Part shown: in pieces, positions 36,661 through 61,588 of the stretch | How positions within the stretch are numbered: the stretch's first letter is position 1 | How the letters are laid out: each line of letters opens with the position of its first letter | Origin: Dehalococcoidia bacterium | GTDB taxonomy: Bacteria; Chloroflexota; Dehalococcoidia; UBA2979 | DNA: 64,000 nucleotides | Reading direction: 5' to 3' | Assembly: GCA_965226785.1 (NCBI GenBank) | Contig: CBDDEC010000004.1 | Span: forward strand, 588,093 to 652,092 | Notes under the pieces: generated by a model | The model's database searches: none | Told to the model about the DNA's origin: nothing | The model's input: only the letters and a program-made list of their open reading frames with translations | Made by a program: the position numbers and the translations under genes

Positions 36661-37174
36661 GCCCCGGCGGGCGACCCTCCGGCCGGTCGGTGCCGCGCTC
36701 GCCGCACACAGTGCAGAGATAGGCCTCTGACTCCAGCAGCTCCCCCTCGGCGCGCGAGCACTCCGCACAGATGCCCTCGGTGAGCATGGTCCGCCCGCAG
36801 CGCTCGCACTCGTACCGCGGCTGCGTGAGGTCCTTCAGGTCGCCGAGCTCGAGGGCCTGGAAGGCGTGTTGCATGGTCGCCTCTATGACCTTAGGGGCGT
36901 GCCACCCTCTTGCCCGGAACTTCTCTATCAGCTCTCGCGCCGTCCAGCCCTCGCGCAGCTCGAACACGGGGTCGGCGTCCGTGCCGGCGACGAGCCGGAT
37001 GGAATCGCCATCGCTGTTGCTGATATCCGCGGCGAGCCCGGACTGTACCGGCTCCGGCCTGGCGGCCTCCTCGGCCTCCTCGGCGGTCGCCAGGCGCCAG
37101 TGCTCCCAGCCGTAGCGGACCTTGCCGTCCACGCGCATTTTCTTGAGCGCTGGCAGCTTCGGGTGGAGCTGCAC
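36641..37174 (-). CDS. hypothetical protein with C-terminal CxxC zinc-ribbon motifs
   Basis: 177 aa. Motifs CERCGR...CAEC...CTVCGERG. Confidence 0.4.
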   Translation of the reverse strand: MQLHPKLPALKKMRVDGKVRYGWEHWRLATAEEAEEAARPEPVQSGLAADISNSDGDSIRLVAGTDADPVFELREGWTARELIEKFRARGWHAPKVIEATMQHAFQALELGDLKDLTQPRYECERCGRTMLTEGICAECSRAEGELLESEAYLCTVCGERGTDRPEGRPPGLWRPTR

Positions 37175-37175
37175 G

Positions 37176-37830
37176 ATGACCGTGCTTTACCTCGGCGTCG
37201 TGATCTCGGTGTTGACGCTCCCGGCGTCGCGGCCGACGCAGGTGGTGGTGGGCCGGTCGGTGTTTGGCGACATGCTCGCCGGGTGGCGCTACGTCATACG
37301 CCAGCCACGCCTGCGCACGATGATCCTGCTCTTCTACTGCATGATCATGCTCGGTCTGTCTTCGACCACCGCCTTCCCTGGCCTGGTCGAGAACGAACTC
37401 GGGCGCAGGGTCGAGGACATCGGCGTGATGTCTCGGTGAGCGCGGTCGGCGGCCTGCTCGCGAGCGTCTTCGTCGCTCCGATCGCCGGTTCGAGGCGTGC
37501 GCTGCCGGTCTACGCGGCTGGCGGCGTCCTCACCGGGCTGTCGTTGGTGCTCGTCGGCCTGACGCCGACGTTCCTGCTGGTCTTCGGACCGATGTTCCTG
37601 ATGGGCCTGGGCACGGGCGCATTCCAGACACTCAACAGCGCCGTGATCGTCACCGAGTCGGCGCCGCAGTACTACGGCCGCGTCATCTCACAGACCTCGA
37701 TGGCGTTTGGAGCGTTCATGCTCGCCTCGCTGCCGGTCGGCCTCGCTGCCGGTCGGCCTCGCGGCCGACGCGTTCGGCGAGCGGGCGACACTGATCGTGA
37801 TCGGACTGCTGATCATCCCGTGGGGCGGCA
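37176..37830 (+). pseudogene. MFS transporter pseudogene (5'-truncated, frameshifted)
   Basis: Two frames carry segments homologous to residues about 170-430 of MFS gene 1336..2631 (YVIRQPRLRTMILLF, FPGLVENELG, ESAPQYYGRVISQT). A 16-bp tandem duplication tcgctgccggtcggcc x2 at 37721..37752 shifts the frame. Confidence 0.65.
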
Positions 37831-37916
37831 ATATTCCATCCAGTCCATGATTTCAGCTTTTCGGAGTCAGCGGCGCGCCTCGCGGATACGGCGGATGAGG
37901 TTTTCGTGCCCCACAG
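37829..37916. repeat. MITE-like ~90-bp repeat element A, copy 1 (terminal inverted repeats CGTGGGGC / GCCCCACAG)
   Basis: Near-identical copies at 53626..53723 and 56495..56592. Imperfect TIRs. The internal GGCGCGCC palindrome is within a duplex-like region. Confidence 0.6.
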
Positions 37917-37921
37917 GGTGG

Positions 37922-39629
37922 GGGTGTGAGATCTCGGTACCCGCACGACAGAACGGCTCCGGTACGTGCACGACATGTGGTGCAGGGTACTAGGCTGCAT
38001 TGATCCGGTCCGGCCTGCCACCTGGGTTCGCAAAGGCACCATGCTCCTTCCTGCGGTCGTGTCTGGCCGCGTGCGTACGAATGATTCGGTCATCGCTCCA
38101 GATCGGCACCGTGTCGCCTGCCAGGGAGACCTCCACCTGGCGTCCCCGGAACGCGTTGCCGACGCGGTAGTTGGCGCCCGCGAAGCTCACCGAGCCGTTG
38201 CGGTCGACCTTGCGGACGACCACCCGGTCCGAGGCCGGACGCTTCGGCGCCGCGGCGAGCGCCTGCTTCAGCACCCGCTCCTCCTGCTCAGGGAGGTGCC
38301 GCCGGGCGTGCGTCGCCACGAGCACCGCGTCGTGGAAGACCTCCACGAGACCGTCGTGACAGACGAGTTCGACGGACTGTCCGGCGAGGTAGCGGCCGAC
38401 GTGGTACTTGAAGTTGAGCAGGCTCACCTTGCCGTCCACGAGCACCCGCCGGAGCAGGCGCGGGGCCGGTGGACCGGGCTCACCCTCCGGGGCTGTTGCC
38501 ACCGGCTCCGACTCCTCAAGGGGCGTCGGATGCGCGGTGGCGAAGCGCTCGGCCGGGGGCCGGTTGCCGAGGCTCTGGTGCTCGCGGCAGTGGTTGTAGT
38601 CGTGCACCCAGGCGTCGATCGCTGCCTGCGCCTCGGCGATCGACGCGAAGACCTTGCCGTCCAGGGACTCCCGCTTCAGCGTCTTGTGGAAGCGCTCGAC
38701 CTTGCCGGTGGTGGTCGGTGACGCAGGCGCGGTCAGCAGGTGGCGGATGCCGTGCTCGCGGCAGATCCGGTCGAAGCGCACCTCGCTCTGGCGCGGCCCG
38801 AAGCGGCCGGTGAAGACCTTGCCGTTGTCGGAGAGGATCGCCTCCGGCACGCCGTGACGGCGCATTGCCTCCAGCAGGGCGTCGCAGACCGGCCGGGCGG
38901 TGGCGCGTGCGACGACCTTCGCCGAGACGCAGAACCGCGAGTGGTCGTCGATGCCCGTCACGATCGAGGGGCGCGAGCCATCCTGTAGCCGCACCCCGAG
39001 CGTAATGTCCATCTGCCAGAGCTCCATCGCCCGCGAGCGCTCCCAGCGCTTGTAGTCGCTGGGCCGCCTGCGCCGTCGCTTGGGGTCGATGAGCTGGTGG
39101 CGGACGAGCGCCCGGTAGATGCCGGACCGAGAGGGGAGAGGCGAGACGCCGGCGCGGGCAAGCCTGCTCAGGATCGTGCGCGGCCCCCAGCCGCGGTGCT
39201 GTCGTCTCATCTCGACGACGCGGGCCTCGACCGCCGGCGGCATCTGGTGCGGGCAGTTGCTGGGGCGTGAACTACGGTCGGCGAGCCCCGGGAGTCCTTC
39301 GGCCGCGTAGCGCCGCAGCCACGTGTGCACCGTCTGCCGCCCGACGCCGTAGCGACGCGCGACGTCGGTGACGCTCGCGGCTCCGTCGAGTACCTCGAGC
39401 ACCGCCCTATACCGCTGTTCCACGAGCCCCAACTCCACCAGCATGGCGGCCTCCTCCGCTGCGGACGGGATCGTCCACCGGGAGGGGCCCTCGAGCAGGA
39501 CCAGGAAGAGCAGCCAGGTGTCGCCCGGCTACCGGAGCCAGTGTCGCCTGCGTACCGGAGCCGCGTCCGCGAAGTGTCGTGCAGGTACCGGCGCCAGGGT
39601 GTCGCCTAGCTACCGGAACCTCACACACT
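37922..39629 (-). mobile_element. IS481-family insertion sequence (type 2), ~1.7 kb, with subterminal repeated motifs
   Basis: Ends are inverted: both read (GTGTCGYSNNGTACCGGNGCC)xN...CTCACAC outward. There are four direct copies of the ~22-bp motif at 39520..39615 and two at 37930..37985. A solo right-end copy lies at 56775..56841. Confidence 0.65.
37990..39444 (-). CDS. IS481-family DDE transposase (484 aa)
   Basis: N-terminal HTH (VTDVARRYGVGRQTVHTWLRRY). DDE core MELWQMDITL...ILSDNGKVF...HNHCREHQSLG. Long C-terminal extension. Confidence 0.75.
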   Translation of the reverse strand: MLVELGLVEQRYRAVLEVLDGAASVTDVARRYGVGRQTVHTWLRRYAAEGLPGLADRSSRPSNCPHQMPPAVEARVVEMRRQHRGWGPRTILSRLARAGVSPLPSRSGIYRALVRHQLIDPKRRRRRPSDYKRWERSRAMELWQMDITLGVRLQDGSRPSIVTGIDDHSRFCVSAKVVARATARPVCDALLEAMRRHGVPEAILSDNGKVFTGRFGPRQSEVRFDRICREHGIRHLLTAPASPTTTGKVERFHKTLKRESLDGKVFASIAEAQAAIDAWVHDYNHCREHQSLGNRPPAERFATAHPTPLEESEPVATAPEGEPGPPAPRLLRRVLVDGKVSLLNFKYHVGRYLAGQSVELVCHDGLVEVFHDAVLVATHARRHLPEQEERVLKQALAAAPKRPASDRVVVRKVDRNGSVSFAGANYRVGNAFRGRQVEVSLAGDTVPIWSDDRIIRTHAARHDRRKEHGAFANPGGRPDRINAA

Positions 39630-39648
39630 CCATGCAAGTGGCGAAGTC

Positions 39649-39696
39649 TGGAGCGGGAGAAGGGATTCGAACCCTCGACCCTCTGCTTGGGAAGCA
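39649..39696 (-). other. tRNA 3'-terminal fragment (T-arm + acceptor 3' strand + CCA); candidate integration att site remnant
   Basis: Minus strand reads ...GGGTCGAGGGTTCGAATCCCTTCTCCCGCTCCA, i.e. T-stem GAGGG/CCCTT, T-loop TTCGAAT, acceptor 3' strand, discriminator and CCA. No complementary 5' acceptor strand or D-arm was found within 130 nt. Adjacent to a tyrosine integrase. Confidence 0.55.
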
Positions 39697-39800
39697 CGCT
39701 GGTTGCCGCAGCAGGCGACATAACTCAGATGTGAGACTGCAGGGAAACTGCAGGGGAATCGCAGGTCAGGGGCCCGCTCGGTGCCGCTTCTGAGGCGGGC

Positions 39801-40727
39801 TCAGCGAGACACCGGGCCGATCATCTGGTCGCCCGGGGAGAAGCGATGGTGGCGTGTTGCCGCCTGCTCCGAGCGGTAGGCCGAGCTGTAGCGACGCACC
39901 ATGTCGGGCGAGGAGTGTCCGAGCAGGTACTGCACGTCGAGTTCGCGGGCATCGTGTGCGATGGCCCACGTCGCGAATGTGTGGCGGAAGCGATGCGCGT
40001 GCACTTTCGCCACTTCTGCGCGACGACCCAGGCGGCGGAGCATCTGCTTGAGCCCGTTCGGTCGGAGCGCGGTCGCTGGCTTCAACTCACCAAGGTGGCT
40101 GGCCGCTACGAAGAGCGGACCCGGAGCCGTTCCCCGCCGCTCGAGGTAGCGCTCCAGCGCGGCGCCACAGTGCGCTGCAAAGGGCACCACGCGCTGCTTG
40201 TTGCCCTTGCCGTGGCGTACGCGCAGCCGGCGCGTCTCGAGGTCGAGGTCATCGAGCGTCAGCTGAACGAGCTCTGAGCATCGCAGGCCAGTGTCGAGTA
40301 AGCACAGCACCATCGCACGATCCCGCAGCCCGAGCGCGGTGGCTGAATCGCACCCCGCCATCAGCTGCGCGATGTCGGCTGGCGAGAACGGCTCGACAAT
40401 GCGCTGTGGCAGCCGGACGTTCTTGATCCCCCGGAACGGGTTGTCTTGGAGGTGGCGAGCGTCGACGAGCCAGTTGAAGAAGCAGCGGACCTCGCGGAAG
40501 TAGCGGTGTCGAGTCTCAAGGCTGAGGTGAGAGAAGCCGCCCAAATAGCGGTAGACGTCTTCCGGCGTGACCGCCGCCGCGTCGGCGACCGTCACTGCGC
40601 GGGCGAAGCGATTCAGTGACTCTCGGTATGCGCGCACCGTCTGCGCGGACTTGCCCTCGACCTCACAGCGCAGGAGGTACAGCGCGCTTAGCTCGGTGAG
40701 GGAGGGGCTCGCGTTCATCACGAGCAT
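39801..40727 (-). CDS. tyrosine-type site-specific recombinase/integrase (Xer/phage-integrase family)
   Basis: C-terminal catalytic motifs ...HRFRHTFATWAI...LLGHSSPDMVRRY. N-terminal SAM-like domain. Start at ATG 40727; the ORF is open to a TTG at 40754. Confidence 0.8.
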   Translation of the reverse strand: MLVMNASPSLTELSALYLLRCEVEGKSAQTVRAYRESLNRFARAVTVADAAAVTPEDVYRYLGGFSHLSLETRHRYFREVRCFFNWLVDARHLQDNPFRGIKNVRLPQRIVEPFSPADIAQLMAGCDSATALGLRDRAMVLCLLDTGLRCSELVQLTLDDLDLETRRLRVRHGKGNKQRVVPFAAHCGAALERYLERRGTAPGPLFVAASHLGELKPATALRPNGLKQMLRRLGRRAEVAKVHAHRFRHTFATWAIAHDARELDVQYLLGHSSPDMVRRYSSAYRSEQAATRHHRFSPGDQMIGPVSR

Positions 40728-40756
40728 GGACGCTCTCTCCCAGGCCGAAGTCAAGC

Positions 40757-41497
40757 GGTGCCGCGGCCATCCGCATCGTCGGCGAGCTGCGTGCGCTTGG
40801 CTTCGACGTCAGCGCTCGCACCGTGAGTCGTTACCGCCGGCAAGCGCTGCGGCGACCGCCGAGCCAGTCGTGGCGCACGTTTCTCCGCAACCACGCGTCC
40901 AGCATCTGGGCCGCCGATCTGTTCACGGTCCAGACGCTCGCCTTCCGCACGCTCTCCGTGCTCATCGTGATCGACCACGACCGGCGCCGCATCCGGCACT
41001 GGAACGTCACGGAGCATCCGAACGCGCCCTGGATCTGGCAGCAGATGATCGAGGCGACCGCCTGGGGTCAGCAGCCAGGGTTCCTCATCCGAGACCGCGA
41101 CCGTAGCTATGGCGGAGACTTCATCGCACGCGCTCGACGGCTCGGGATCGAGACGATTCTGACTCCGGTGCACGCGCCGAATGCCAACGCCATCGCCGAG
41201 CGCGTCATCGGCACGCTCAGGCGCGAGTGTCTCGACCATGTCATCGCGGTCAACGAACAACATCTCCGGCGGGTGCCTGGTGAGTACGTCCAGCACTACA
41301 ACGCGATGCGGCCGCATCGATCATTGGCGCTCGACTCTCCGGAGGGACGCTCGCCGGTGCAGCGGACGCCGAGTCAGCGAGTTGTCAGCAAGCCGGTGCT
41401 AGGAGGTTTGCATCATGAGTATCGGTGGGCCGCATCAGGTTTTGCCGACTTGTTTGAATCCGGCCAGACACCGGGGGTTGCGGCCCTAAGGTGTTGA
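40757..41497 (+). pseudogene. IS481-like (type 1) element copy D: 5'-truncated transposase, stop codon mutated, right IR interrupted by IS110
   Basis: Homologous to the transposase 51259..52338 from residue ~135 onward. Terminal GCATGAGGTTTTGCCGTCCCAC is altered to GCATCAGGTTTTGCCG|ACTTG. The remaining CCCACGG is found at about 42673. Confidence 0.7.
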
Positions 41498-51236: not shown

Positions 51237-52353
51237 GTGGGACGGCAAAACCTGATAGGTGCAGCTCTGTCCTGAGATAGCAGAGTATCGGCGAGCCACG
51301 AGAGGCTCGTCTGTGCTCTACCTCCGTCTGCTTGTCGCAGCACTCTTCGCATCGGTCCGCGCCCGCCGAGATCTCGTCCTCGAGAACTTGGCGCTGCGGC
51401 ATCAGCTCGCCGTCTACACAAGGGGCCGTCGTCGACCGCGGCTCCGTCGCCACGACCGCCGACTCTGGTCACTGCTGGCACGTGGTTGGTCCGGCTGGCG
51501 AGGCACGCTCGTGATGGTCGAGCCGGACACGGTGGTGCGCTGGCATCGTTCTGCTTGGCGCGCCTACTGGCGCTGGAAGAGTCGTCGCCGCTCCGGACGA
51601 CCCCGGATTCCCGCAGAGCTGCGACAGCTGATCGTCCGCATCGCCACTGAGCATCCGCGGTGGGGCGCCGTCCGCATCGTCGGCGAGCTGCGTGCCCTTG
51701 GCTTCGAGGTCAGCGCCCGCACCGTGAGTCGCTACCGTCAGCAGGCGCTCCGGCGACCGCCGAGTCAGTCGTGGCACACGTTTCTCCGCAACCACGCGTC
51801 CAGCATCTGGGCCGCCGATCTGTGCACGGTCCAGACGCTCGCCTTCCGCACGCTCTCCGTGCTCATCGTGATCGACCACGACCGGCGCCGCATCCGGCAC
51901 TGGAACGTCACGGAGCATCCGAACGCGCCCTGGATCTGGCAGCAGCTGATCGAGGCGAGCGCCTGGGGTCAGCAGCCAGGGTTCCTGATCCGAGACCGCG
52001 ACCGTAGCGATGGCGGAGACTTCATCGCACGCGCTCGACGGATCGGGATCGAGACGATTCTGACTCCGGTGCACGCGCCGAATGCCAACGCCATCGCCGA
52101 GCGCGTCATCGGCACGCTCAGGCGCGAGTGTCTCGACCATGTCATCGCGGTCAACGAACAACATCTCCGGCGGGTGCCTGGTGAGTACGTCCAGCACTAC
52201 AACGCGATGCGTCCGCATCGATCATTGTCGCTCGACTCTCCGGAGGGACGCTCGCCGGTGCAGCGGACGCCGAGTCAGCGAGTCGTCAGCAAGCCGGTGC
52301 TAGGAGGCTTGCATCATGAGTATCGGTGGGCCGCATGAGGTTTTGCCGTCCCA
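51237..52353 (+). mobile_element. IS481-like (type 1) insertion sequence, copy A (~1.1 kb, intact)
   Basis: Terminal IRs GTGGGACGGCAAAACCT (left) and rc at the right end. Copies at 57243.. (truncated), 60041..61158 (intact), 63921.. (edge), 40757.. (fragment). Confidence 0.8.
51259..52338 (+). CDS. DDE (rve integrase-core) transposase, IS481-like single-ORF type (359 aa)
   Basis: N-terminal leucine-zipper/HTH (LVLENLALRHQLAV, HPRWGAVRIVGELRALG). Core IWAADLFTVQT...LIRDRDRS...RPHRSL. Confidence 0.8.
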   Translation: MQLCPEIAEYRRATRGSSVLYLRLLVAALFASVRARRDLVLENLALRHQLAVYTRGRRRPRLRRHDRRLWSLLARGWSGWRGTLVMVEPDTVVRWHRSAWRAYWRWKSRRRSGRPRIPAELRQLIVRIATEHPRWGAVRIVGELRALGFEVSARTVSRYRQQALRRPPSQSWHTFLRNHASSIWAADLCTVQTLAFRTLSVLIVIDHDRRRIRHWNVTEHPNAPWIWQQLIEASAWGQQPGFLIRDRDRSDGGDFIARARRIGIETILTPVHAPNANAIAERVIGTLRRECLDHVIAVNEQHLRRVPGEYVQHYNAMRPHRSLSLDSPEGRSPVQRTPSQRVVSKPVLGGLHHEYRWAA

Positions 52354-52564
52354 CGGCCAGCCCGGGTCGCCGAGGTCCCTTGCCGAGATGGCCGTGGCCT
52401 CTGGCGAGATGGAGCCGGGAAAGAGCTCCAGCAGCACATCGGGCGAGCTGGTCCCCGCGCTAGGTATGGTGGGCTGCCCGCGAACTCCGCCACGATCAAG
52501 TCGGCGAAGTCGCCAGCAGAGACTTCGCGTTGGGGGGCAGCCTGTGAAGCAGGGCAGTAGGTCG

Positions 52565-53413: not shown

Positions 53414-53625
53414 CTTCCTGGTCGATCGGCGAGCGCATGCGACTCAGACAACGATACCGCGATCCTCCAGTGGGGCAGACATCAGGCGGTGGAGCCGAAG
53501 GGCTTCGACAGGCTGTGCGGGCGTGGGCCGTGCGCTGGGACGGCTACCCGACCGACCTACGTCGGCGACAGAGACACCACGATCACGATCTCGGCACAAA
53601 GACATACACGATGGGTGAACACACC

Positions 53626-53723
53626 CGTGGGGCGGCAATATTCCATCCAGCCCATGATTTCAGCGTTTCGGAGTCAGCGGCGCGCCTCGCGGATACGGCG
53701 GATGAGGTTTTCGTGCCCCACAG
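53626..53723. repeat. MITE-like repeat element A, copy 2
   Basis: See 37829..37916. Confidence 0.6.
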
Positions 53724-53752
53724 GTGTGGGGCGCGGGTGACACGGCCGAGGA

Positions 53753-56290: not shown

Positions 56291-56494
56291 GGCGCTACCA
56301 GCCTGTTGAGCTCAGCGGTCTGACGCTCGCGGTGTGACGCTGGCAGGGTTCCGGACCCGAGCGCAGTGCTTCACACCTGAGTGTCGGAGTCAATCCGCTC
56401 GCGTGTCGCCGTAGAAGTAGAGCTGGTCGCCGGCGAGCGTCGGCGGTCCATGCCTCGAAGTCGCCCGGTGACATCGCCGCCCAGTCCGGGGTCT

Positions 56495-56592
56495 CGTGGG
56501 GCGGCAATATTCCATCCAGCCCATGATTTCGGCGTTTCGGAGTCAGCGGCGCGCCTCGCGGATACGGCGGATGAGGTTTTCGTGCCCCACAG
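56495..56592. repeat. MITE-like repeat element A, copy 3
   Basis: See 37829..37916. Confidence 0.6.
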
Positions 56593-56774: not shown

Positions 56775-56841
56775 GTGTGGGTGTGAGATCTCGGTACCCG
56801 CACGACAGAACGGCTCCGGTACCTGCACGACATGTGGTGCA
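56775..56841. repeat. solo right-end remnant of the type 2 IS481-family element
   Basis: GTGTGGGTGTGAGATCTCGGTACCCGCACGACAGAACGGCTCCGGTACCTGCACGACATGTGGTGCA is about 95% identical to 37917..37985. No transposase adjacent. Confidence 0.6.
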
Positions 56842-59927: not shown

Positions 59928-60040
59928 CCAAGGAACGCCGCGCAAGGTCTCTGGCAAAGCCCGTTGCGACCCTTGGTACGAGTTCGCAGTACAGCACGCT
60001 TAGGCCCACCACCCTGACTGAAGACAACACCGGGGCCGCC

Positions 60041-61158
60041 GTGGGACGGCAAAACCTGATAGGTGCAGCTCTGTCCTGAGATAGCAGAGTATCGGCGAGC
60101 CACGAGAGGCTCGTCTGTGCTCTACCTCCGTCTGCTTGTCGCAGCACTCTTCGCTTCGGTCCGCGCCCGCCGAGATCTCGTCCTCGAGAACTTGGCGCTG
60201 CGGCATCAGCTCGCCGTCTACACCCGGGGCTGTCGTCGACCGCGGCTCCGTCGCCACGACCGCCGATTCTGGTCACTACTGGCACGCGGTTGGTTCGGCT
60301 GGCGAGGCACGCTCGTGATGGTCGAGCCGGACACGGTGGTGCGGTGGCATCGTTCTGCTTGGCGCGCCTACTGGCGCTGGAAGAGTCGTCGCCGCTCCGG
60401 ACGACCCCGGATTCCCGCAGAGCTGCGACAGCTGATCGTCCGCATCGCCACTGAGCATCCGCGGTGGGGCGCCGTCCGCATCGTCGGCGAGCTGCGTGCC
60501 CTTGGCTTCGAGGTCAGCGCCCGCACCGTGAGTCGCTACCGCCGGCAAGCGCTGCGGCGCCCCCCGAGCCAGTCGTGGCGCACGTTTCTCCGCAACCACG
60601 CGTCCAGCATCTGGGCCGCCGATCTGTTCACGGTCCAGACGCTCGCCTTCCGCACGCTCTACGTGCTCATCGTGATCGACCGCGACCGGCGCCGCATCCG
60701 GCACTGGAACGTCACGGAGCATCCGAACGCGCCCTGGATCTGGCAGCAGATGATCGAGGCGACCGCCTGGGGTCAGCAGCCAGGGTTCCTGATCCGAGAC
60801 CGCGACCGTAGCTATGGCGGAGACTTCATCGCACGCGCTCGACGGCTCGGGATCGAGACGATTCTGACTCCGGTGCGCGCGCCGAATGCCAACGCCATCG
60901 CCGAGCGCGTCATCGGCACGCTCAGGCGCGAGTGTCTCGACCATGTCATCGCGGTCAACGAACAACATCTCCGGCGGGTGCTTGGTGAGTACGTCCAGCA
61001 CTACAACGCGATGCGTCCGCATCGATCATTGTCGCTCGACTCTCCGGAGGGACGCTCGCCGGTGCAGCGGACGCCGAGTCAGCGAGTCGTCAGCAAGCCG
61101 GTGCTAGGAGGCTTGCATCATGAGTATCGGTGGGCCGCATGAGGTTTTGCCGTCCCAC
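60041..61158 (+). mobile_element. IS481-like (type 1) insertion sequence, copy C (intact)
   Basis: IRs as in copy A. Transposase 60063..61142 (359 aa, a few substitutions relative to A). Confidence 0.8.
60063..61142 (+). CDS. DDE (rve) transposase, IS481-like type 1
   Basis: About 97% identical to 51259..52338. Confidence 0.8.
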   Translation: MQLCPEIAEYRRATRGSSVLYLRLLVAALFASVRARRDLVLENLALRHQLAVYTRGCRRPRLRRHDRRFWSLLARGWFGWRGTLVMVEPDTVVRWHRSAWRAYWRWKSRRRSGRPRIPAELRQLIVRIATEHPRWGAVRIVGELRALGFEVSARTVSRYRRQALRRPPSQSWRTFLRNHASSIWAADLFTVQTLAFRTLYVLIVIDRDRRRIRHWNVTEHPNAPWIWQQMIEATAWGQQPGFLIRDRDRSYGGDFIARARRLGIETILTPVRAPNANAIAERVIGTLRRECLDHVIAVNEQHLRRVLGEYVQHYNAMRPHRSLSLDSPEGRSPVQRTPSQRVVSKPVLGGLHHEYRWAA

Positions 61159-61588
61159 GGGCCCATAACTACGCCTGTATCGCGGTTCAGTGTGGCACCA
61201 TCACTCGCGGGTAGCAGCGGCGAAGTTGGGGCAATGGCCATGTACGCCGGTGACTCCGTGCGTTTCATCCGCGGGGTCGAACCTGCGAGTGAGATAGTTC
61301 GCGAGATCGCTGAAGGTGCCGACGAGCTCCTGCGTGCGCGGAGCTGAGATCCCCGGCCCCCGGCAGGGCTGACTGCGTATTGACGCCCGGGCAGCATCTT
61401 CCTCTGGGACGGCGACGGCTCAATGACGCACGAGGACTCGATGCGCAGCCTGCGGCTGATGGGCGAGGAGGTGCTCCCTGCCATGCGCGAAGTCGCCGAC
61501 GAACTCCGCCTAGACGGCCCCTTCGACGTCCACCCGATGACCGGAGCACGCCGCGAAGGCTCGGCCGTCGAGGGCTAGGCGCGTCTTC

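What the first reader, a model, noticed from the sequence alone, without database searches (positions are those of the whole stretch)
37922..39629. Type 2 IS481-family element with arrays of subterminal 22-bp repeats (putative transposase binding sites) and a solo end elsewhere
Inside the left end there are four tandem direct copies of GTGTCG(CC/TG)NNNGTACCGG(A/C)GCC (39520..39615). Two or more copies lie in inverted orientation inside the right end (37930..37985). Both ends then terminate in CTCACAC. Multiple subterminal binding sites are unusual for IS481-family members (typically short simple IRs) and resemble Tn3/Mu-like end architecture. A 67-bp copy of the right end alone sits at 56775..56841.
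Basis: seen in the sequence. Interest (0 to 1): 0.5.

Follow-up and report, generated by a model that had tools for sequence, protein, structure and literature searches.

The report
tRNA-seeking insertion sequence with multi-site ends
The repeats are real: they are the conserved transposase-binding sites (four at one end, two at the other) of a 1.7-kb jumping gene from a large, apparently undescribed branch of the IS481 family. Its ends and enzyme resemble phage Mu, Tn7 and IS21, and about 80% of the copies examined lie at one of two set distances downstream of a tRNA gene.

Summary
Window 37925..39625 (minus strand) is an intact 1701-bp IS with TGTGAG...CTCACA tips. It carries one 484-aa transposase gene, four direct 22-bp sites inside the transposase-proximal end and two inverted sites inside the other end. 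A 60-bp solo right end lies at 56782..56841.

In about 160 relatives from other genomes and metagenomes, most copies with enough flank keep the same 4+2 layout. Spacing is 25/31-33/22-23 bp on the left and 25 bp on the right. Target duplications are 14-15 bp.

The transposase passes the IS481 model but carries two extra Mu-type beta-barrel domains. Its closest structures are IS21 IstA, TnsB and MuA. I read the repeats as binding sites for a Mu/IS21-like multimeric transpososome made by a single protein, with no ATPase partner.

The larger finding is target choice. About 80% of copies sit downstream of a tRNA gene or its 3' fragment. They share its orientation, with the left end facing it, at either about 19 bp or about 95 bp. 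Random control positions score 0.2%. The window copy lies 23 bp past a tRNA-Gly(CCC) fragment. The recognition mechanism is unknown. I found no description in the searchable literature, but ISfinder could not be checked.

The parts
37925..39625 (-). Complete insertion sequence, 1701 bp, with tips TGTGAG...CTCACA. This copy has no target-site duplication.
   Evidence: The tips were defined by comparison with relatives that have 14-15-bp TSDs directly abutting TGTG...CACA and with near-identical copies L081-L085. Median length in the family is 1701 bp.
37990..39444 (-). Transposase gene, 484 aa. Domains: two N-terminal HTH domains, a DDE (rve) core, and two tandem Mu-type beta-barrels at about aa 330-385 and 405-460.
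   Evidence: ORF. Pfam. NCBIfam IS481 299 bits. Each barrel alone passes the PF22483 threshold (32.3 and 38.4 bits against 27), and the two halves align at 32% identity, E 3e-10. AF2 model. Foldseek matches to IstA, TnsB and MuA. D146, D206 and E250 are invariant in 33 homologues.
39599..39620 (-). Site L1, the terminal transposase-binding site of the left (transposase-proximal) end.
   Evidence: PWM score 26.5 bits.
39574..39595 (-). Site L2, 25 bp inward of L1.
39541..39562 (-). Site L3, 33 bp inward of L2. In the family consensus its ..CTGGGCGACA.. core is the most conserved of the sites; this copy reads CGCAGGCGACA. It is preceded by the conserved spacer CTTCGCGGACGCGG.
   Evidence: (column conservation).
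39518..39539 (-). Site L4, 23 bp inward of L3 and 74 bp upstream of the transposase start codon.
37931..37952 (+). Site R1, the terminal binding site of the right end.
   Evidence: (12.7 bits).
37956..37977 (+). Site R2, 25 bp inward of R1. This is the same spacing as L1-L2.
   Evidence: 21.6 bits.
39450..39486 (-). 5'-UTR hairpin in which a CCUCC-type anti-Shine-Dalgarno stretch pairs with the transposase ribosome-binding site (GGAGG).
   Evidence: RNAalifold on 12 family members gives 15 pairs, 5 of them with compensatory changes.
39626..39648 (-). 23-bp spacer between the tRNA fragment and the IS tip. Its last 15 bp (CACTTGCATGGAGTG) match the right-flank sequence of copy L081, so it is probably the surviving left copy of the original target duplication.
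   Evidence: the L081 right flank is ACACTTGCTGGAGTG followed by a terminator.
39649..39696 (-). 3' 48 nt of a tRNA-Gly(CCC) gene, from the anticodon stem to CCA. It is a displaced att-type fragment, not a whole gene, and is the probable target determinant.
   Evidence: ARAGORN finds no whole tRNA in the window. In the alignment with L085, L083 and L081 only these 48 nt are shared. L085 has the whole-looking gene sequence.
56782..56841 (+). Solo right end, a 60-bp remnant with sites R1 and R2 and one mismatch. Its outer flank CCCACACTTCTCAAT resembles the TSD CCCATACTTCTAAT of copy L085.
39801..40754 (-). Context: an XerC/D-like tyrosine recombinase gene, followed by the direct repeats CCCTGCAGT x2 and then the tRNA fragment. 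This is the arrangement expected at the edge of an integrated island.
   Evidence: NCBIfam sub-threshold Xer-type hits. Sequence.
37817..37923 (+). Context: a 107-bp repeat that abuts the IS right tip. It recurs at 53624-53731 and 56492-56592 and carries an IR-like end resembling that of the 1.13-kb IS at 51231-52360. It explains why this copy has no TSD (rearranged junction).
   Evidence: Self-BLAST. IRs of the 1.13-kb elements.

Best explanation
The locus is an intact member of a large long-transposase branch of the IS481 family. The branch is found mostly in Acidimicrobiia and other Actinomycetota.

**What is shown.**
- Its single protein has two HTH domains, a DDE core and two Mu-type beta-barrels.
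- Each 22-bp repeat has two conserved blocks, CCGGTA and GACA, about one helical turn apart.
- L1-L2 and R1-R2 have the same 25-bp spacing. L3 and L4 exist only at the left end, so the two ends are unequal.
- Integration makes 14-15-bp staggered cuts.
- The target is not a sequence at the insertion point. It is a position measured from the 3' half of a tRNA gene: about 19 bp (class A, including this window's lineage) or about 95 bp (class B) beyond the tRNA 3' end. The left end faces the tRNA, and the transposase gene reads in the same direction as the tRNA.

**What is inferred.**
- The repeats are the transposase's binding sites, each read by a bipartite HTH pair.
- By analogy with IS21 IstA, MuA and TnsB, two protomers at L1 and R1 perform the chemistry. 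Two at L2 and R2 hold a tetrameric synaptic complex together through the barrel domains.
- L3 and L4 probably set insertion orientation, as the unequal ends of Tn7 do, and/or repress the transposase promoter.
- A conserved hairpin that masks the ribosome-binding site protects the element from translation of tRNA read-through transcripts.
- How the tRNA is recognised is not known.
For: **Sites.**
- Eight of 8 exact motif hits in the window lie in IS ends.
- Among genome relatives, 58 of 69 with a full left flank have 4 left sites spaced 25/31-33/22-23 bp, and 52 of 73 have 2 right sites, 50 of them exactly 25 bp apart.
- In an independent metagenome set, 40 of 64 have 4 left sites (38 of them spaced exactly 25/33/23) and 38 of 66 have right sites 25 bp apart.
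- Background is 0.04 hits per kb-strand.
- Sites within one element resemble each other more than the same sites in other elements. The difference is 4.8 percentage points, reached by 0 of 1000 permutations.

**Protein.**
- IS481 HMM 299 bits.
- Two PF22483 barrels.
- Best PDB sequence hit is IS21 IstA.
- Best fold hits are IstA 8B4H/8Q4D, ShCAST TnsB 7SVW, Tn7 TnsB and MuA 4FCY, with E from 1e-16 to 1e-11 over 390-530 alignment columns.
- The IstA tetramer uses two terminal repeats per end, and its beta-barrel stabilises the tetramer (PMC10122671).

**TSDs.** 39 of 63 elements have TSDs of 12-17 bp, with the mode at 14-15. Copy L085, in the 99%-identical P0001 cluster, has a clean 14-bp TSD.

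**Target.**
- ARAGORN finds tRNAs of many isotypes on the same strand. They end 18-21 or 83-110 bp from the tip, with the mode at 93-98.
- A T-loop motif lies at class A or class B distance in 51 of 61 genome loci and 37 of 49 metagenome loci, against 0.18% of random positions in the same loci.
- The classes follow transposase clades.
- Unrelated family members are stacked in tandem at the same spot in L014, L038, L070 and L076.
- Four left flanks of the window's own IS type share only the 48-nt 3' part of tRNA-Gly(CCC).
- There is no consensus at the insertion point.

**Hairpin.**
Against: - Nothing here is biochemical. Binding, stoichiometry and the catalytic/structural division of labour are inferred from homology with IstA, MuA and TnsB.
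- The AF2 model is of moderate quality (pLDDT 76, pTM 0.43), and TM-scores to the multi-domain templates are low (about 0.3).
- Unlike IS21, Mu and Tn7, no AAA+ partner is encoded, so the analogy may fail at target capture.
- The window copy, L081, L082 and L083 lack TSDs. About 15-25% of copies are not next to a recognisable tRNA segment.
- One IS type (L033, L036, L037) sits 88-109 bp from different tRNAs, so the class B 'ruler' is loose.
- Class B flanks are enriched in 11-bp-phased direct repeats. That could mean a host or island protein, rather than the tRNA DNA itself, is what is recognised.
Confidence: 0.78

Rival explanations
1. The tRNA association comes from hitch-hiking or selection, not from targeting. 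On this view the IS once landed in the att-proximal arm of tRNA-integrating genomic islands and spreads with them. Alternatively, only insertions in harmless tRNA-downstream spacers survive.
For: - tRNA genes are island hot spots, and tyrosine integrases are found within the flanks of about 15 of about 57 loci.
- The window copy itself lies beside an integrase and a displaced tRNA fragment.
- Class B flanks carry 11-bp-phased repeats that look like integrase arm-type sites.
- Many copies lack TSDs.
Against: - Distances are quantised at 18-21 bp or about 93-98 bp, with strict orientation, across more than 15 tRNA isotypes and many species.
- Clean TSDs flank many copies at these positions.
- Different family members are stacked at exactly the same spot, each with its own TSD (L038, L076).
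- Downstream genes are often ordinary chromosomal genes, for example a periplasmic binding protein and MttB.
- No integrase was detected in the flanks of class A loci other than the window's.
- Selection alone would not fix orientation or a spread as narrow as 3 bp.
Confidence: 0.12
2. Targeting is real but reads a protein, not the tRNA DNA. The transposase would dock on a tyrosine recombinase (or another factor) bound at the att core in the tRNA 3' half and at the arm-type repeats. This would parallel the way ISAba32-group IS1202 elements sit 5 bp from XerC/D sites.
For: - ISAba32-type IS insert with IRL 5 bp from XerCD sites (bioRxiv 10.1101/2022.12.17.520857).
- 44% of class B flanks have exact direct repeats of at least 8 bp, mostly at 11-bp phasing. 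The figure is 3.6% in controls and 0% in class A.
- In L022, L025, L044, L047 and L056 an integrase gene starts directly after the IS.
- The shared 48-nt tRNA segment of the window lineage is exactly the att-type duplicated segment.
Against: - Most loci show no integrase within 1-3 kb.
- Class A flanks have no such repeats.
- The tRNAs, and therefore the presumed integrases, are very diverse, yet one IS type uses several of them: L033 tRNA-Pro and L037 tRNA-Ala.
Confidence: 0.2
3. The inner repeats are mainly regulatory. On this view L3 and L4, and perhaps L2 and R2, are operators through which the transposase represses its own promoter, or they are host-factor sites. They would not be parts of the synaptic complex, and the active complex would be a simple dimer on L1 and R1, as in most IS3/IS481 elements.
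For: - L3 and L4 exist only at the end that carries the promoter region, 74-180 bp upstream of the start codon.
- The family consensus for L3 and the L2-L3 spacer are far more conserved than the other sites. This suggests a second constraint.
Against: - R2 has no promoter to regulate, yet it is conserved at the same 25-bp spacing as L1-L2.
- The protein has the barrel domains that hold the IstA, MuA and TnsB tetramers together.
- This rival is compatible with the main explanation as far as L3 and L4 are concerned.
Confidence: 0.15
4. The repeats are chance or flanking sequence and not part of the element.
For: None after testing. The only basis was that a single copy was seen.
Against. The sites are present inside the TSD-defined boundaries of most of about 160 relatives, and at all untruncated ends of the near-identical copies.
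Confidence: 0.01

Closest known systems
IS481 family (canonical members such as IS481 and ISLxc2)
   Same: The transposase HTH + DDE region passes the NCBIfam IS481 model. It has TGT...ACA tips and a single ORF without frameshift. Some ISfinder IS481 members also make TSDs of about 15 bp (PMC10045372).
   Different: Canonical members are about 1.0-1.3 kb, with transposases of about 330 aa, one simple IR of about 22 bp per end and usually 6-bp NCTAGN duplications. An example is ISLxc2: 1105 bp, 332 aa (PMC2516522). There is no room in them for six 22-bp sites. This element is 1.7 kb and 484 aa, has two extra beta-barrels and 4+2 sites, and inserts next to tRNA genes.
IS21 (IstA/IstB)
   Same: IstA is the best sequence and fold match in the PDB. 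It has the same HTH-HTH-DDE-barrel order. It has several terminal repeats per end (L1, L2 / R1, R2), bound by a tetramer that the barrel stabilises (PMC10122671).
   Different: No IstB ATPase gene is present. The IS21 HMM scores below its cut-off (85.6 against 160). There are two barrels instead of one. TSDs are 14-15 bp. The element is tRNA-directed.
Tn7-like elements, including type V-K CAST (TnsB, TnsC, TniQ/TnsD)
   Same: TnsB is a top fold match. The ends are unequal, with several transposase sites. Insertion is orientation-specific at a fixed distance downstream of a conserved gene. From my own knowledge, V-K CASTs and some Tn7-like elements home to tRNA genes; this was not checked here.
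   Different: Those systems need separate target-selector proteins or guide RNAs plus an AAA+ adaptor. Here a single 484-aa protein in a 1.7-kb element would have to do everything.
ISAba32 subgroup of the IS1202 family
   Same: It is a single-gene rve-type IS distantly related to IS481. It inserts site-specifically with its transposase-proximal end (IRL) next to a tyrosine-recombinase site (XerCD). It can stack several copies at one site, and copies without DR are explained by recombination (bioRxiv 10.1101/2022.12.17.520857).
   Different: Its target is dif/xrs rather than tRNA. Its offset is 5 bp and its DR 5 bp. It has a non-conserved helical C-terminus. Multi-site ends are not mentioned in the sections read. 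The ISNCY_2 HMM scores 89 against a cut-off of 250 for our protein.
Phage Mu (MuA)
   Same: Three sites per end in unequal arrangement, a domain II-beta barrel, and a tetrameric core. It is a fold match (4FCY).
   Different: Mu needs MuB, an enhancer and host factors, makes 5-bp TSDs, and has near-random targets.

Membership tests
IS481 family | The transposase matches the curated IS481 profile above its cut-off. | tested here: met
   NF033577 scores 299.2 bits against a cut-off of 224, covering aa 10-301.
IS481 family | Single transposase ORF, DDE triad, TGT...ACA termini. | tested here: met
   One 484-aa ORF. D146, D206 and E250 are invariant. The left tip is TGTG in 75 of 76 relatives, and the right tips listed all end in ACA.
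IS481 family | Compact size (about 1-1.3 kb) with one short simple IR per end and usually a 6-bp TSD. | tested here: not met
   1701 bp; 4+2 subterminal sites; TSD 14-15 bp. ISfinder does list some IS481 members with TSDs of about 15 bp (PMC10045372), so the TSD length alone does not exclude membership.
IS21 family | Two genes, istA (transposase) and istB (AAA+ helper). | tested here: not met
   There is no room for a second gene: 181 bp on the left and 65 bp on the right are non-coding.
IS21 family | The transposase matches the IS21 profile above its cut-off. | tested here: not met
   NF033546 scores 85.6 bits against a cut-off of 160.
IS21 family | Multiple terminal repeats per end, plus a beta-barrel after the DDE domain. 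| tested here: met
   compared with PMC10122671.
Tn7-like transposons | TnsB-type transposase together with a TnsC ATPase and a TniQ/TnsD target selector. | tested here: not met
   Only one gene lies inside the TSD-defined element. Only the transposase fold is shared.
IS1202 family (ISAba32 subgroup) | The transposase matches the ISNCY_2/IS1202 profile; 5-bp DR; IRL 5 bp from an XerCD site. | tested here: not met
   NF033594 scores 89 bits against a cut-off of 250. TSD is 14-15 bp. The target is the tRNA 3' flank.
Site-specific (targeted) DDE transposon, functional class | Insertions recur at a fixed offset and orientation from a recognisable landmark far more often than chance, in independent events. 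| tested here: met
   51 of 61 genome loci and 37 of 49 metagenome loci fit class A or B, against 0.18% of random positions. There are distinct TSDs, many tRNA isotypes and stacked insertions. De novo transposition could not be tested with these tools.

The most novel reading that the evidence does not exclude
A single 484-aa DDE transposase, with no ATPase, selector protein or guide RNA, carries out orientation-specific, site-specific integration at a heritable offset downstream of essentially any tRNA gene. The offset is about 19 bp in some clades and about 95 bp in others. The transposase would read the conserved 3' half of the tRNA gene, or a protein bound there. The unequal 4+2 site arrays would be what couples target recognition to orientation. 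That would make it a minimal, Tn7-like 'safe-harbour' insertion system that has not been described.
Probability: 0.5. Interest if true: 0.8.

Novelty: new variant of a known kind. Interest (0 to 1): 0.66.

Why it matters
- **For mobile-DNA biology.** This links the simple IS3/IS481 world to the Mu/IS21/Tn7 world. It is a one-gene element that already has multi-site unequal ends, barrel domains and site-specific, oriented integration. It makes one question directly testable: how much of Tn7-style target choice can a transposase achieve on its own?
- **For genome annotation.** The family is large: 7992 proteins scored E <= 1e-20. It is labelled only 'IS481 family' or 'InsO'. Its habit of sitting between tRNA genes and island integrases will confuse island-boundary and att-site prediction.
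- **For engineering.** A compact single-protein system that inserts at a defined distance from tRNA genes, in a defined orientation, would be an attractive safe-site integration tool in Actinomycetota, if the targeting is confirmed.

Tried and rejected
- **Plasmid collection.** A megablast of the IS found nothing.
- **Exact-protein look-up.** The window's transposase is not on record. The 99%-identical cluster representative P0001 and cluster members were used instead.
- **Integrase as the universal neighbour.** An iterated HMM of tyrosine recombinases found them in only about 15 of about 57 loci. Pfam on 10 downstream ORFs gave ordinary genes or another IS copy. 'Always upstream of an int gene' is therefore rejected.
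- **Flanking short repeats as excision or TSD scars.** This idea was suggested by L014 and L075, where the repeated units are IS tips. As a general explanation it is disfavoured, because the period is mostly 11 bp rather than 14-15 bp.
- **Sequence consensus at the insertion point.** None was found; information content is at most 0.38 bit per position.
- **Residues that separate class A from class B.** Only five weakly discriminating columns emerged (for example E288 in class A against P in class B). They could not be interpreted.
- **Rfam.** No RNA family was found in 37000-41000.
- **TSD partners in the window.** The flank 15-mers do not occur a second time.
- **Literature.** Seven searches found no description of multi-site IS481 ends or of a tRNA-targeting IS. 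ISfinder and TnPedia could not be queried.
- **The 'type 1' elements as a canonical IS481 control.** Their transposases score below both the IS3 and the IS481 cut-offs. They serve only as a simple-IR contrast.
Full report
**1. What is in the window**

The minus strand of 37925..39625 holds one 484-aa ORF (39444..37990). It is flanked by 181 bp of non-coding DNA on its upstream (left) side and 65 bp on its downstream (right) side.

The core pattern TGTCGN6TACCG occurs 8 times exactly in the 64-kb window, and every occurrence is in an IS end. Four are direct copies at 39519-39615. Two are inverted copies at 37935-37975. Two more lie at 56792-56832. The repeat finder returns the four 22-nt copies with start-to-start spacing of 23, 33 and 25 bp, plus a 52-nt imperfect terminal inverted repeat.

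The 42 terminal bases of the right end recur exactly at 56781-56822. Alignment shows the solo copy runs 56782-56841 with one mismatch and then diverges.

**2. Boundaries and relatives**

A scan of one genome per species found more than 571 relatives. The best 80 (L001-L080) are 55-71% identical, and nearly all match essentially the whole 484 residues. Most come from Acidimicrobiia and other Actinomycetota MAGs.

Their flanks show the same architecture. A position weight matrix built from 30 of them finds the following:
- Four left sites in 58 of 69 elements with a full left flank, spaced 25/31-33/22-23 bp.
- Two right sites in 52 of 73, of which 50 are exactly 25 bp apart.
- A background of 0.04 hits per kb-strand.

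An independent set of 80 metagenome loci (L086-L165) repeats the pattern.

The tips are TGTG...CACA (left tip TGTG in 75 of 76). The median length is 1701 bp. In 39 of 63 elements the tips are directly flanked by a duplication of 12-17 bp, mostly 14-15 bp. This fixes the window element at 37925..39625.

Five copies from the same 90%-identity protein cluster were read from other contigs (L081-L085). All keep the same tips and sites, except that the left end of L084 is truncated. L085 has a clean 14-bp duplication, CCCATACTTCTAAT.

**3. What the repeats are**

Each site has two conserved blocks, CCGGTA and GACA, about 10 bp apart. That suits a two-HTH reader.

Sites of one element resemble each other more than they resemble the corresponding sites of other elements. 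The difference is 4.8 percentage points, reached by 0 of 1000 permutations. This is the expected pattern if the sites co-evolve with their own transposase.

L1-L2 and R1-R2 share the 25-bp spacing. L3 and L4 exist only at the left end. In the family consensus, L3 (..CTGGGCGACA..) and the L2-L3 spacer (TTTCGGGACGCGG) are the most conserved parts, which hints at an added role such as promoter control or a host factor.

**4. The protein**

NCBIfam places aa 10-301 in IS481 (299 bits, cut-off 224). The IS3, IS21 and ISNCY_2 profiles all score below their cut-offs.

Pfam adds PF22483 (Mu transposase C-terminal domain). The C-terminal 160 residues are in fact two tandem copies of this barrel. Each passes the threshold on its own, and the two are 32% identical to each other.

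The best PDB sequence match is IS21 IstA. An AlphaFold2 model (pLDDT 76) shows two helical DNA-binding domains, the RNase H core and two beta-barrels. Foldseek ranks IstA (8B4H, 8Q4D), ShCAST TnsB (7SVW), Tn7 TnsB and MuA (4FCY) first, with E from 1e-16 to 1e-11 over nearly the whole length.

In IstA, a tetramer binds two terminal repeats per end and the barrel stabilises the tetramer. Mos1, which has one repeat per end and no barrel, is a dimer (PMC10122671).

My best reading, which is inference, is that L1/R1 hold the catalytic protomers and L2/R2 the structural ones. L3/L4 would make the ends unequal. No ATPase partner is encoded.

Canonical IS481 elements are too small for this layout. ISLxc2, for example, is 1105 bp, with a 332-aa transposase, a 22-bp IR and an NCTAGN target (PMC2516522). 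The two 1.13-kb IS in this window (51231-52360 and 60039-61160) likewise have simple 22-26-bp IRs, although their transposases fall below both the IS3 and IS481 cut-offs.

**5. The unexpected part: where the family inserts**

In the window, the left tip lies 23 bp beyond the CCA end of the 3' 48 nt of a tRNA-Gly(CCC) gene (39649-39696, minus strand). ARAGORN finds no whole tRNA, so this is a displaced att-type fragment. It lies next to an XerC/D-like recombinase gene (39801-40754) and two CCCTGCAGT repeats.

Across the relatives, ARAGORN finds a tRNA on the same strand as the transposase gene, ending 18-21 bp or 83-110 bp from the left tip (mode 93-98). These tRNAs cover many isotypes: Arg, Gly, Ala, Val, Met, Lys, Pro, Ser, Thr, Ile, Leu, Asn, Gln, Glu, Phe and His-adjacent clusters.

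Using the conserved T-loop box as a strand-specific marker, among loci with at least 135 bp of upstream flank:

| Set | Loci | Class A | Class B | None |
|---|---|---|---|---|
| genome contigs (L001-L080) | 61 | 10 | 41 | 10 |
| metagenome contigs (L086-L165) | 49 | 12 | 25 | 12 |

- So 51 of 61 genome loci and 37 of 49 metagenome loci fit class A or class B.
- Only 0.18% of random positions in the same loci do so.
- Some 'none' cases do have a tRNA with an atypical T-loop, so these are lower bounds.

Further points:
- The two distance classes follow transposase clades, so the offset is inherited with the element.
- There is no sequence consensus at the insertion point.
- Unrelated family members are stacked head-to-tail at the same spot, separated only by the duplicated target (L014, L038, L076; L070 confirmed by Pfam).
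- The left flanks of the window copy, L081, L083 and L085 agree only over the 48-nt tRNA 3' segment and differ on both sides of it. This places the determinant in, or on, that segment.

**6. Islands or tRNA?**

Integrase genes are enriched nearby but are found in only about 15 of about 57 loci. Other neighbours are ordinary genes.

Class B flanks are nevertheless special. 44% carry an exact direct repeat of at least 8 bp within 70 bp of the tip, mostly with an 11-bp period. The figure is 3.6% for control windows and 0% for class A. These look like phased protein-binding sites, possibly integrase arm-type sites. In L022, L025, L044, L047 and L056 an integrase gene starts right after the IS.

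I cannot decide whether the transposase reads the tRNA DNA or a protein bound there. The closest precedent is the ISAba32 group of IS1202. Its transposase-proximal end sits 5 bp from XerCD sites, and the mechanism there is also unknown (bioRxiv 10.1101/2022.12.17.520857).

**7. State of the window copy**

This copy has no duplication. Its left junction (CACTTGCATGGAGTG | IS) matches the right junction of L081 (IS | ACACTTGCTGGAGTG, followed by a terminator). Both look like halves of an ancestral insertion at the native tRNA-Gly site, later reshuffled by recombination between copies.

The right tip abuts a 107-bp repeat that is present three times in the window and ends in an IR-like sequence of another IS type. 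The solo end at 56782 is flanked by CCCACACTTCTCAAT, which resembles the L085 duplication. This is suggestive only.

**8. Regulation**

A conserved hairpin pairs a CCUCC/CUUCUUCG stretch with the ribosome-binding site. It has 15 pairs, 5 of them with compensatory changes. Such a hairpin would block translation of transcripts reading in from the tRNA gene, which makes sense for an element that always sits downstream of one.

Most right tips read CTTGACA (55 of 76). That is a -35-like hexamer facing outward, as in IS that form circle-junction promoters. This was not tested.

**9. Novelty and verdict**

Seven literature searches found no description of multi-site IS481 ends or of an IS that targets tRNA genes. 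It is known that some ISfinder IS481 members make TSDs of about 15 bp. ISfinder and TnPedia could not be consulted, so named members may exist.

I rate this a new variant of a known kind. By its catalytic core it belongs to the IS481 family. By its ends and accessory domains it works like IS21, Mu or Tn7. Its target choice has no described equivalent among single-gene IS that I could find.

The binding-site reading of the repeats is well supported (about 0.8). The tRNA association as a pattern is very well supported. Active targeting by the transposase alone is plausible but unproven.

Noticed in passing
window 39626-39800, and loci L001-L165 upstream of the IS left tips: Family-wide, orientation-specific insertion about 19 bp (class A) or about 95 bp (class B) downstream of tRNA genes or their 3' fragments. 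The window copy is 23 bp past a tRNA-Gly(CCC) 3' fragment, beside an XerC/D-like recombinase gene.
   Followed up: yes
class B loci, e.g. L022 2750-2817, L024, L031, L047, L079; window 39720-39750: Short direct repeats (8-13 bp, 2-4 copies, mostly with an 11-bp period) lie just beside the insertion point in 44% of class B flanks, against 3.6% of controls. They may be integrase arm-type sites. The window has CCCTGCAGT x2 between the recombinase gene and the tRNA fragment.
   Followed up: partly
L014 4519-4590, L038 4517-4560, L070 4522-6184, L076 4539-4580, L075 4540-4600: Second, different family members start immediately after the duplicated target of the first, giving tandem stacking at one hot spot. 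In L014 and L075 the flank holds 3-4 tandem copies of an IS tip (ATGTGCTGTCC; CCGGAACTTGACA).
   Followed up: partly
window 39450-39486 (minus strand): A conserved 5'-UTR hairpin masks the transposase ribosome-binding site. It shows compensatory changes across the family.
   Followed up: yes
window 37729-37760: A perfect 16-bp tandem duplication, CCTCGCTGCCGGTCGG x2, lies inside an MFS-transporter-like ORF about 170 bp from the IS right tip. Its size fits this family's target duplication, so it may be an excision footprint. It would shift the reading frame.
   Followed up: no
window 37817-37923, 53624-53731, 56492-56592: A 107-bp sequence is repeated three times at 96-97% identity. It ends in CCCTGTGGGGCACGAAAACCTCATC, which resembles the IR of the 1.13-kb IS. 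One copy abuts the right tip of the IS studied here.
   Followed up: partly
window 51231-52360 and 60039-61160; fragments at 40823-41497 and 45199-45759: There are two copies of a 1.13-kb IS with simple 22-26-bp IRs and a 359-aa rve transposase that scores below both the IS3 and the IS481 cut-offs. Two further rve fragments are also present. The region is an IS-rich, rearranged island.
   Followed up: partly
right tips of relatives (e.g. L008-L080): 55 of 76 right ends finish with CTTGACA, an outward-facing -35-like hexamer. The left ends carry CATGCT/CATAGT about 16 bp inside the tip. Together they could form a junction promoter if the element circularises (copy-out-paste-in).
   Followed up: no
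3' flanks of tRNA genes in class B loci (e.g. L022, L025, L038, L072): A conserved motif, GAAAgnCCAGGTCAGrG, lies 2-20 bp after the tRNA 3' end in many different species and isotypes. It is often the start of a terminator hairpin. In L002 and L007 the IS duplication covers it. A similar CGCAGGTCAGGGG is at window 39757-39769 on the plus strand.
   Followed up: no
transposase alignment, residue 288 (window numbering): In the NHCREHQSLG motif, class A elements have Glu at position 288 (91%) and class B elements have Pro (87%), across separate clades. This may be linked to the offset difference.
   Followed up: no
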